11,196 nucleotides of DNA from a virus. Its lineage: Duplodnaviria > Heunggongvirae > Uroviricota > Caudoviricetes. Position numbers and translations under genes: made by a program. Of the stretch, positions 8,290-8,579 are shown piece by piece. The notes beneath the pieces were generated by a model that saw only the letters and a program-made list of their open reading frames with translations, had not been told where the DNA came from and did no database searches. Location: positions 1 through 11,196 of the IMG/VR virus record IMGVR_UViG_2541047814_000003, one strand, 5' to 3'. Each line of letters begins with the position of its first letter. Within the stretch, counting starts at the first letter, position 1.

Positions 8290-8485
8290 GGCACACCCCC
8301 TGACGAATACGGGCGGCGAATACCATCACGCAGCCAGCCGGGGATTGCTGGCGTGCTTCCTGTTCGCTGGTGGCCACGATGTGAATCACGCGCGGTTGTG
8401 CGGTGCTCAGGGCGATAAAACGCCAGATGTATTTATTCAGGTTGTACGAGTCCCGCCCTTGCGGGTGTATGGTATAATTTCTCAT
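8282..8485 (-). CDS. Hypothetical small protein (67 aa), first gene of the replication operon
   Basis: Internal ATG at 8485 of the 348-aa track ORF, preceded by GAGG with 5-nt spacer; stop overlaps the next gene's start (ATGCCTGA). Upstream part of the 348-aa frame is low-complexity and treated as non-coding. Confidence 0.5.
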   Translation of the reverse strand: MRNYTIHPQGRDSYNLNKYIWRFIALSTAQPRVIHIVATSEQEARQQSPAGCVMVFAARIRQGVCHA

Positions 8486-8579
8486 AGCTGCCTCGATAAT
8501 CTTGCTATCGTTGGTGGTTAGAAGCCCCGTTACTGCTCCTACAGTGCGGGGTTTCGTCGTTTCTGCACCTTGTATTAAC

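What the first reader, a model, noticed from the sequence alone, without database searches (positions are those of the whole stretch)
8440..8561. Possible antisense RNA promoter inside the 5' end of the replication operon
A plus-strand extended -10 (TGgTATAAT, 8470-8478) lies within the first codons of the 67-aa gene, and a plus-strand hairpin with T-rich tail (CCCCG..CGGGG at 8524-8549, then TTTCGTCGTTTC) lies about 50-80 nt downstream. A short plus-strand RNA from here would be complementary to the SD and start of the leftward operon mRNA, reminiscent of RNA-based immunity or copy control. There is no good -35, so this is speculative.
Basis: inference. Interest (0 to 1): 0.4.

Follow-up and report, generated by a model that had tools for sequence, protein, structure and literature searches.

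The report
Antisense small RNA guarding satellite operon
A short structured RNA gene, read backwards from inside the first codons of a phage-satellite's replication operon, is conserved in about a quarter of E. coli genomes and most likely silences that operon by pairing with its ribosome-binding site; it belongs to a familiar class of regulators but matches no Rfam family and appears in no paper I could find.

Summary
The window is an E. coli capsid-forming PICI-like satellite. TGGTATAAT sits at 8470-8478 (+), in codons 3-6 of a 67-aa Icd-like gene. A hairpin at 8521-8555 with a T-rich tail follows. On its own the motif is not significant (1 seen, 0.36 expected). Across 143 distinct relatives, however, the region folds into two stem-loops only on the + strand. 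The same 21 pairs are canonical in 98.6% of cells on + and 79.7% on -. There are 339 G:U pairs against 2 A:C. The + strand folds better in 85/85 and 58/58 sequences. Compensatory changes exceed all 500 shuffles. A TAnnnT -10 hexamer ends 4-5 nt before the RNA's first modelled base in all 13 groups with unrelated upstream sequence. The predicted ~75-nt RNA (about 8484-8560, +) is fully complementary to the operon leader and its Shine-Dalgarno sequence. Both loops are hypervariable. It is not a P1 C4 or P4 CI-type RNA and matches no Rfam family. The best reading is a cis-antisense repressor of the SymR/CopA kind. Expression and effect remain untested.

The parts
8470..8478 (+). Extended -10 promoter element (TGgTATAAT) of the antisense RNA, embedded in codons 3-6 of the Icd-like gene
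   Evidence: Sequence. TAnnnT lies at a fixed distance in 116/117 group-1 sequences, with -12T in 15/16, -11A in 16/16 and -7T in 15/16 types. It is present in 13/13 clusters with unrelated upstream sequence.
8484..8486 (+). Predicted transcription start of the antisense RNA (6-8 nt after the -10)
   Evidence: Inference from -10 spacing. The covariance model's first position aligns at 8484. The hexamer ends 4-5 nt before model position 1 throughout the family.
8485..8520 (+). Stem-loop 1 of the antisense RNA. Outer stem 8485-8492/8513-8520, inner stem 8494-8498/8506-8510, variable loop 8499-8505. Contains the anti-SD CCTC at 8491-8494.
   Evidence: Fold. Consensus structure and pair counts show G:U-rich pairs that cannot form on the - strand, and AU/UA/CG swaps at the inner stem.
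8521..8555 (+). Stem-loop 2, the terminator hairpin of the antisense RNA (GC-rich 14-bp stem, loop 8536-8541, hypervariable apical part)
   Evidence: Five pairs have double changes, and the + strand fold averages -20.0 against -15.2 kcal/mol on the - strand.
8552..8564 (+). T-rich tail (TTTCGTCGTTTCT). The first three T pair with GAA at the base of the stem.
   Evidence: The mean T fraction is 0.60 (range 0.50-0.83) in the 12 nt from the stem base across 85 relatives. Tails are canonical in relatives.
8486..8585 (-). 5' leader of the leftward operon mRNA, the target. About 75 nt are fully complementary to the antisense RNA. SD GAGG is at 8491-8494 and the start codon at 8483-8485.
8592..8620 (-). 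Sigma-70-type promoter of the leftward operon (TTGACA, 17 nt, TAAAGT), convergent with the antisense promoter about 100 bp away
   Evidence: Best promoter match in the window, 10/12. TTGAC(A/G) is conserved in relatives.
8282..8485 (-). First gene of the operon: a 67-aa Icd-like protein (annotated family: host cell-division inhibitor)
   Evidence: NCBIfam NF033153, E 5.5e-20. RefSeq annotation of a near-identical locus.
5849..8289 (-). Downstream, tightly packed operon genes: hypothetical 106 aa (7969-8289, overlaps the icd stop), DUF4222 (7663-7962) and a D5/P4-type primase-helicase (5849-7681)
8566..8585 (.). Perfect 8-bp inverted repeat CACCTTGT/ACAAGGTG. It lies at the predicted 5' end of the operon mRNA, just beyond the antisense terminator.
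   Evidence: Conserved in the relatives that share this promoter module.

Best explanation
The region encodes a cis-antisense small RNA of about 75 nt (roughly 8484/8486 to 8555-8564, + strand). It is transcribed from an extended -10 promoter that lies inside codons 3-6 of the Icd-like gene. It folds into two stem-loops, and the second is its intrinsic terminator. The RNA is perfectly complementary to the leader of the leftward operon (Icd-like, DUF4222, primase), including the Shine-Dalgarno sequence. Inferred mechanism: the loops contact the complementary loops of the nascent leader, the duplex extends over the SD, and translation of the first gene is blocked. Through the overlapping, tightly packed downstream genes, or through duplex cleavage, expression of the replication genes would then be held down until the operon promoter is strongly activated on helper-phage induction. 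What the sequence comparisons show: strand-specific structure, covariation, a conserved -10, a terminator and complementarity. What is inferred: that the RNA is made, that it represses, and how.
For: Context: the window is a cf-PICI-like satellite with int, an alpA-like gene, Icd-like, DUF4222, primase, SSB and capsid E. The segment 8480-8600 matches 1361 of 5426 complete E. coli genomes. Strand test: 39 distinct hairpin-2 variants fold at -20.0 kcal/mol on + against -15.2 on -, with G:U pairs 77/507 against 10/422. On 85 distinct sequences the same 21 pairs are canonical in 98.6% of cells on + and 79.7% on -, with 339 G:U against 2 A:C. RNAalifold gives -23.6 kcal/mol (21 bp) on + and -4.7 (6 bp) on -, and the + strand has the lower MFE in 85/85 sequences. 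Covariation: 7 pairs and 85 cells have changes on both sides, against 22 cells in shuffles (0/500 reach it), and slid controls pair in only 37-50% of cells. A covariance model scores 93 bits on + and 8 bits on - in the window. It also finds members it was not built from in Rahnella, Enterobacter and Rosenbergiella. An independent set of 58 sequences repeats the asymmetry: -33.6 against -24.6 kcal/mol, + better in 58/58. Promoter: TAnnnT lies at a fixed distance in 116/117 sequences. The -11A sits on a third codon position that stays T although the codon changes: CAT, TAT, AAT, CGT and TGT, plus TCT read from L010. All 13 clusters with unrelated upstream sequence have TAnnnT ending 4-5 nt before the RNA start, while other offsets have it in 0-1 of 13. 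Terminator: T-rich tails, mean T fraction 0.60. Loops are hypervariable (0.8-0.9 bits) while the linker is nearly invariant (0.09 bits). In one subgroup the anti-SD lies in the SL1 loop.
Against: There is no transcript evidence of any kind, and the papers searched do not mention such an RNA. The window's own tail, TTTCGTCG, is a weak U-tract that the terminator scan missed. There is no -35, so promoter strength is unknown. The near-invariant linker was part of both search patterns, so its conservation is partly a result of how the sequences were collected. Many sequences are close relatives, so counts of cells overstate the number of independent events. The + strand is G+U rich (60%), which by itself favours folding on that strand. 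Repression by pairing, as opposed to transcriptional interference, is inferred only.
Confidence: 0.72

Rival explanations
1. The antisense promoter is real, but its main effect is transcriptional interference. RNA polymerases from the two convergent promoters (start sites about 100 bp apart) collide or occlude each other, and the RNA itself is a by-product.
For: The leftward promoter (8620-8592) and the + strand -10 (8470-8478) face each other at about 100 bp. Convergent-promoter interference is established in coliphage 186 (own knowledge).
Against: A by-product RNA would not need strand-specific structure with compensatory changes, or hypervariable loops on conserved stems. A terminator placed about 25-30 nt before the operon start site stops polymerases from reaching the operon promoter, which limits interference.
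Confidence: 0.1
2. The + strand structure is the 5' leader or attenuator of the rightward YlcI/YnfO-like gene (8682-8987), or simply an insulating terminator, and not a separate small RNA.
For: A + strand gene follows about 120 nt after the tail in the window and in most E. coli relatives. The window's U-tract is imperfect, so some read-through is plausible.
Against: Homology breaks immediately after the tail, and different promoter/operator modules and different rightward genes follow. No alternative antiterminator pairing is apparent: both hairpins are stable and separate. The rightward gene has its own -10-like TATATT (8647-8652) flanked by inverted repeats.
Confidence: 0.08
3. The leader encodes a same-strand regulatory RNA cut out of the operon transcript, like P1/P7 C4 or P4 CI. 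Those lie upstream of icd or early genes and pair with sites further down the same mRNA.
For: An Icd-like gene directly downstream recalls the P1 c4-icd-ant operon (own knowledge). The - strand leader also folds better than shuffles (z = -4.5).
Against: No Rfam family, C4 included, matches even at E up to 10 on either strand. The structure is selected on the opposite strand. No complementary target repeats are found in 8250-8700.
Confidence: 0.03
4. The hairpins act in single-stranded DNA (a replication or packaging signal), or the motifs are chance plus coding constraint with no function.
For: G:T pairs also form in ssDNA. The element sits in a replication operon. TGNTATAAT alone is not significant.
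Against: A conserved -10 at a fixed distance in 13 unrelated sequence contexts and a T-rich tail are features of transcription. Covariation and strand bias exclude chance.
Confidence: 0.04

Closest known systems
SymR/SymE of E. coli (cis-antisense RNA over the 5' end of a toxic gene)
   Same: The antisense promoter is embedded in the target's open reading frame just after the start codon. A short RNA covers the SD/start region and represses translation (PMC1891008).
   Different: There is no sequence or Rfam relationship. This RNA has two stem-loops with hypervariable loops and sits on a mobile satellite. The target is a multi-gene operon, not a single toxin. The module is not tied to one protein family.
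Plasmid countertranscripts that control replication (CopA/CopT of R1, Inc RNA of IncI/IncB plasmids, RNAI of ColE1)
   Same: A constitutive-looking antisense promoter in the leader of the replication operon. A 70-90 nt RNA with stem-loops and an intrinsic terminator. Loops vary and stems are compensated, as expected of specificity determinants (own knowledge of these systems; for this RNA).
   Different: The host element is an integrated phage satellite that replicates only after induction, so steady-state copy-number control is not obviously needed. There is no homology. The first target gene is Icd-like, not a Rep leader peptide.
P1/P7 C4 RNA (c4-icd-ant) and P4 CI RNA immunity
   Same: RNA-level control placed directly in front of an icd-type gene or the early operon of a phage or satellite (own knowledge).
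   Different: C4 and CI are cut from the same strand as their target and pair with separate sites. Here the RNA is on the opposite strand with its own promoter. There is no match to Rfam C4.
P22 sar RNA and lambda OOP RNA
   Same: Short phage antisense RNAs with their own promoter and terminator that overlap the ribosome-binding region or the end of a regulatory gene (own knowledge).
   Different: Different genes, no homology, and those RNAs are not known for hypervariable loops.

Membership tests
cis-encoded antisense (countertranscript) regulatory RNA | Own promoter on the strand opposite the target | tested here: met
   At sequence level only. TGGTATAAT is at 8470-8478. TAnnnT is at a fixed position in 116/117 sequences and in 13/13 clusters of unrelated context. 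Promoter activity was not measured.
cis-encoded antisense (countertranscript) regulatory RNA | Defined 3' end at an intrinsic terminator | tested here: inconclusive
   GC-rich 14-bp stem at 8521-8555 with the tail TTTCGTCGTTTCT. The tool's scan did not call it. Relatives have canonical tails, and the mean T fraction is 0.60.
cis-encoded antisense (countertranscript) regulatory RNA | Conserved secondary structure on the antisense strand, supported by covariation | tested here: met
   98.6% against 79.7% canonical pairs, 85 double-change cells against 22 in shuffles, and the + strand more stable in 85/85 and 58/58 sequences.
cis-encoded antisense (countertranscript) regulatory RNA | Complementarity to the target's translation-initiation region | tested here: met
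   The RNA spans 8484-8560. SD GAGG is at 8491-8494 and the start codon at 8483-8485. In group 2 the anti-SD is in the SL1 loop and the RNA covers the AUG.
cis-encoded antisense (countertranscript) regulatory RNA | The RNA accumulates and represses the target | not testable with these tools
   No transcript or reporter data. Nothing in the searchable literature.
C4 antisense RNA family (P1/P7 C4, P4 CI type; Rfam C4) | Match to the family covariance model | tested here: not met
   No Rfam hit at gathering score in the window or in 9 related loci. None to C4 at E up to 10 in 8250-8750.
C4 antisense RNA family (P1/P7 C4, P4 CI type; Rfam C4) | RNA encoded on the same strand as the operon it controls, upstream of it | tested here: not met
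   The structure is selected on the opposite strand.
Type I toxin-antitoxin system | Antisense RNA genetically tied to one small toxic protein | tested here: not met
   The first gene here is a 67-aa Icd-like protein. The same RNA/leader module precedes HNH+AP2, GIY-YIG, Pol III beta-like and ArdC-N-like genes elsewhere. Toxicity was not tested.
Phage-inducible chromosomal island, capsid-forming type (context of the element) | int, alpA, a replication (primase) module and its own capsid genes in an island of about 10-15 kb | tested here: met
   Integrase 9958-11196, AlpA domain 9339-9635, D5/P4-type primase 5849-7681 and major capsid E 3134-4189. The related annotated locus has a small terminase subunit and a head decoration protein. 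The family description is in 10.1101/2022.09.08.507074. Helper dependence was not tested.

The most novel reading that the evidence does not exclude
The RNA and its complementary leader form a portable regulatory cassette. Its two hypervariable loops would act as specificity determinants, giving an RNA-based immunity or incompatibility code. Related satellites in one cell (up to 6 copies per genome, and often two tandem cassettes per element) could then each silence their own early operon without cross-talk, or silence incoming relatives that carry the same loops. The same cassette has been captured in front of homing-endonuclease and other genes in unrelated viral contigs.
Probability: 0.3. 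Interest if true: 0.7.

Novelty: new member of a known kind. Interest (0 to 1): 0.6.

Why it matters
In the papers I found, induction of Gram-negative PICIs and cf-PICIs is described as requiring the island's alpA gene, activated by the helper phage. None of them mentions an RNA layer. If this RNA is made, it adds a post-transcriptional brake on the satellite's early and replication operon, whose first gene is annotated as a cell-division inhibitor. The brake would be present in roughly a quarter of complete E. coli genomes and in several other enterobacterial genera. It would explain why the first codons of these genes are so constrained. It would also explain why genome pipelines mis-extend the Icd-like ORF through the leader. 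The hypervariable loops give a testable handle on how many related satellites coexist in one cell. The covariance model built here could be used to annotate the family.

Tried and rejected
1. Rfam at gathering score on the whole window and on 9 related loci, and at E up to 10 on 8250-8750. Nothing relevant came up; only chance-level SprD and mir-92 hits. ARAGORN found no tRNA-like gene.
2. My first idea was a P1 C4 or P4 CI-like RNA cut from the operon leader, prompted by the Icd-like gene. I rejected it after the strand test and the lack of target repeats.
3. A type I toxin-antitoxin reading (Icd-like toxin with an antisense antitoxin). I weakened it because the module precedes unrelated genes.
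4. A coding reading of the leader, prompted by the 348-codon open frame 8282-9328 and PGAP's long 'Icd-like' or 'ash' calls. The upstream extension matches no family, and the Ash domain in L012 begins after the leader.
5. tblastn of the Icd-like protein against phage genomes gave one weak hit, and blastn of the leader against phages gave none.
6. Literature searches for the sequence motif, Icd-like with antisense, PICI or cf-PICI with antisense or small RNA, and P4-like with sRNA found no description of this RNA. A search for N15 CA RNA found only a general account of the immA operon.
7. The idea that a -35 compensates where the TG extension is missing is only weakly supported, at 3-4 of 6 matches. 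I make no claim from it.

Full report
**What is in the window**

The 11.2-kb window is an E. coli phage satellite of the capsid-forming PICI type.
- It carries a tyrosine integrase (9958-11196, -) and an AlpA-domain gene (9339-9635, -).
- A YlcI/YnfO-family gene reads rightward (8682-8987, +).
- A leftward operon holds a 67-aa Icd-like protein (8282-8485), a 106-aa ORF (7969-8289), DUF4222 (7663-7962) and a D5/P4-type primase-helicase (5849-7681).
- SSB and a major capsid protein E follow.
- A locus identical over the 471-nt query lies between clpS and cspD in E. coli 1296KP. No RNA gene is annotated there. Over the larger stretch 4991-11196 that locus is 94.6% identical to the window.

**Checking the observation**

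TGGTATAAT is at 8470-8478 (+), in codons 3-6 of the Icd-like gene. There is no -35.

On the + strand it extends to a 14-bp stem at 8521-8555, followed by TTTCGTCGTTTCT.

TGNTATAAT alone is not significant: 1 match against 0.36 expected. The simple terminator scan missed the hairpin.

The leftward operon has the best sigma-70 match in the window: TTGACA-17-TAAAGT at 8620-8592. That gives a leader of about 100 nt.

**Relatives**

The segment 8480-8600 matches 1361 of 5426 complete E. coli genomes, at 76-100% identity. Homology runs from the gene start to about 8586 and then breaks, with different promoter/operator modules beyond.

I collected sequences in three ways:
- Annotated E. coli loci.
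- Eight loci from other genera.
- Two pattern scans of viral contigs.

**Which strand carries the structure**

This was the decisive test. A G:U pair on one strand is an A:C mismatch on the other.

| Measure | + strand | - strand |
|---|---|---|
| Mean MFE, 39 distinct hairpin variants | -20.0 kcal/mol | -15.2 kcal/mol |
| G:U pairs in those folds | 77/507 | 10/422 |
| Same 21 pairs canonical, 85 sequences | 98.6% | 79.7% |
| RNAalifold energy and pair count | -23.6 kcal/mol, 21 bp | -4.7 kcal/mol, 6 bp |
| Mean MFE, 85 sequences | -36.8 kcal/mol | -22.8 kcal/mol |
| Mean MFE, independent set of 58 | -33.6 kcal/mol | -24.6 kcal/mol |
| Covariance model score in the window | 93 bits | 8 bits |

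- Across the 85 sequences there are 339 G:U pairs against 2 A:C on the + strand.
- The + strand folds better in 85 of 85 sequences, and in 58 of 58 in the independent set.
- Seven pairs and 85 cells carry changes on both sides. Shuffles give 22 cells and none of 500 reaches the observed value. Slid controls pair in only 37-50% of cells.
- The covariance model also finds members it was not built from, in Rahnella, Enterobacter and Rosenbergiella. Each lies just upstream of, and antisense to, an Icd-like gene start.

So the selected structure belongs to an RNA antisense to the operon. The leader itself is not the structured molecule.

**The promoter**

In 116 of 117 group-1 sequences a TAnnnT hexamer lies 41-42 nt before the conserved linker. 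Among the 16 distinct types, -12T, -11A and -7T are nearly invariant, while the inner positions vary.

The -11A is the complement of a third codon position that stays T although the codon changes. One search shows CAT, TAT, AAT, CGT and TGT, and L010 has TCT.

In the second set, 13 clusters with unrelated upstream sequence all have TAnnnT ending 4-5 nt before the RNA's first modelled base. Examples are TACAAT, TAAAAT and TAGAAT. At every other offset only 0-1 of the 13 have it.

The predicted start is 8484-8486.

**Anatomy of the RNA**

- Stem-loop 1 spans 8485-8520 and contains the anti-SD CCTC at 8491-8494.
- A short linker follows.
- Stem-loop 2, the terminator, spans 8521-8555.
- A T-rich tail follows, with a mean T fraction of 0.60 across relatives.
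- Both loops are hypervariable (0.8-0.9 bits per column; 29 and 32 variants; 78 combinations). The linker is almost invariant at 0.09 bits, though the search patterns required it.
- In group 2 the anti-SD lies in the SL1 loop and the RNA covers the AUG.

**Most likely mechanism (inferred)**

The RNA most likely pairs with the leader, occludes the SD and blocks translation of the first gene. Effects on the tightly overlapped downstream genes would follow. The architecture matches SymR/SymE, whose promoter is embedded in the target ORF, and plasmid countertranscripts such as CopA (own knowledge).

**Rivals**

- Transcriptional interference between the two convergent promoters.
- A leader or attenuator for the rightward ylcI-like gene.
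- A same-strand C4/CI-like RNA. This is rejected: there is no Rfam match, the structure is on the wrong strand, and no target repeats are found.
- An ssDNA structure, or chance.

**Beyond the finding**

The module is not tied to Icd. In metagenomic viral contigs it precedes HNH+AP2, GIY-YIG, Pol III beta-like and ArdC-N-like genes. All of these begin ATG GCT G, which is the complement of the RNA's 5' end. Several elements carry two cassettes about 700-750 nt apart.

**Novelty and limits**

No Rfam family and no paper in the searchable library describes this RNA. It is a new member of a well-known kind. Nothing here shows that the RNA is expressed or that it represses; those steps need experiments.

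Noticed in passing
window 8282-9328 (-); L011 500-1015, L014 500-907, L018 506-979: The Icd-like reading frame stays open for 348 codons upstream, through the leader and antisense to the ylcI-like gene. RefSeq annotates over-long 'Icd-like' proteins (134-171 aa) or 'ash family' pseudogenes across the leader in several relatives. The extension matches no protein family, so these are probably mis-called starts.
   Followed up: partly
window 8584-8660: Operator-like repeats surround the leftward promoter and the likely ylcI promoter: direct TGTAAG... at 8584-8603 and 8629-8648, and inverted TGTAAGAC/GTCTTACA at 8629-8636 and 8653-8660. In relatives the repeat sequence changes together with the promoter module (for example GTGTTCAACAC repeats), which suggests module-specific repressor sites.
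   Followed up: partly
window 8566-8585: A perfect 8-bp inverted repeat, CACCTTGT/ACAAGGTG, lies at the predicted 5' end of the operon mRNA, immediately after the antisense terminator tail. It is conserved only in relatives with the same promoter module. It could be a 5' stabilising hairpin or a backup terminator.
   Followed up: no
window 8452-8465: A GC hairpin, CCCGC-CCTT-GCGGG, lies inside codons 8-12 of the Icd-like gene, where a -35 would be for the antisense promoter. Different hairpins occupy the same place in L140 (CCCG-TTTA-CGGG) and L073 (CCCC-GTTA-GGGG). Its role is unknown.
   Followed up: no
L150 8168-8251, L188 11607-11692, L218 12569-12647, L168 12783-12865, L198 1699-1781 and 5153-5236: In metagenomic viral contigs the same RNA/leader cassette (30-52 bits) precedes non-Icd genes: HNH_3+AP2 and GIY-YIG+NUMOD3 homing-endonuclease-like proteins, a Pol III beta-like protein and an ArdC-N-like protein. 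Nearly all begin ATG GCT G (L218 begins GTG GCT G). The cassette looks portable.
   Followed up: partly
L002 2979-3060 and 3725-3808; L247 11011-11092 and 11756-11839; L201, L174, L232, L238, L035: Many elements carry two cassettes in tandem about 700-750 nt apart, with different loop sequences. One stands before an Ash/Icd-fusion gene and one before an Icd-like gene.
   Followed up: no
window 9292-9311 (+): A strong GC-rich terminator-like hairpin (8 pairs, then TTTGTTATAT) lies after the rightward ylcI-like gene and a possible unannotated small ORF (9045-9224, +). It sits just before the alpA-like gene on the other strand.
   Followed up: no
window 1-4990 compared with L001: The window is a mosaic relative to the best annotated match (E. 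coli 1296KP). It is 94.6% identical over 4991-11196, with only patches of 82-95% elsewhere, so the packaging half of the island differs. Window bases 1-289 match the sequence next to clpS, so the window seems to start near the attachment junction.
   Followed up: partly
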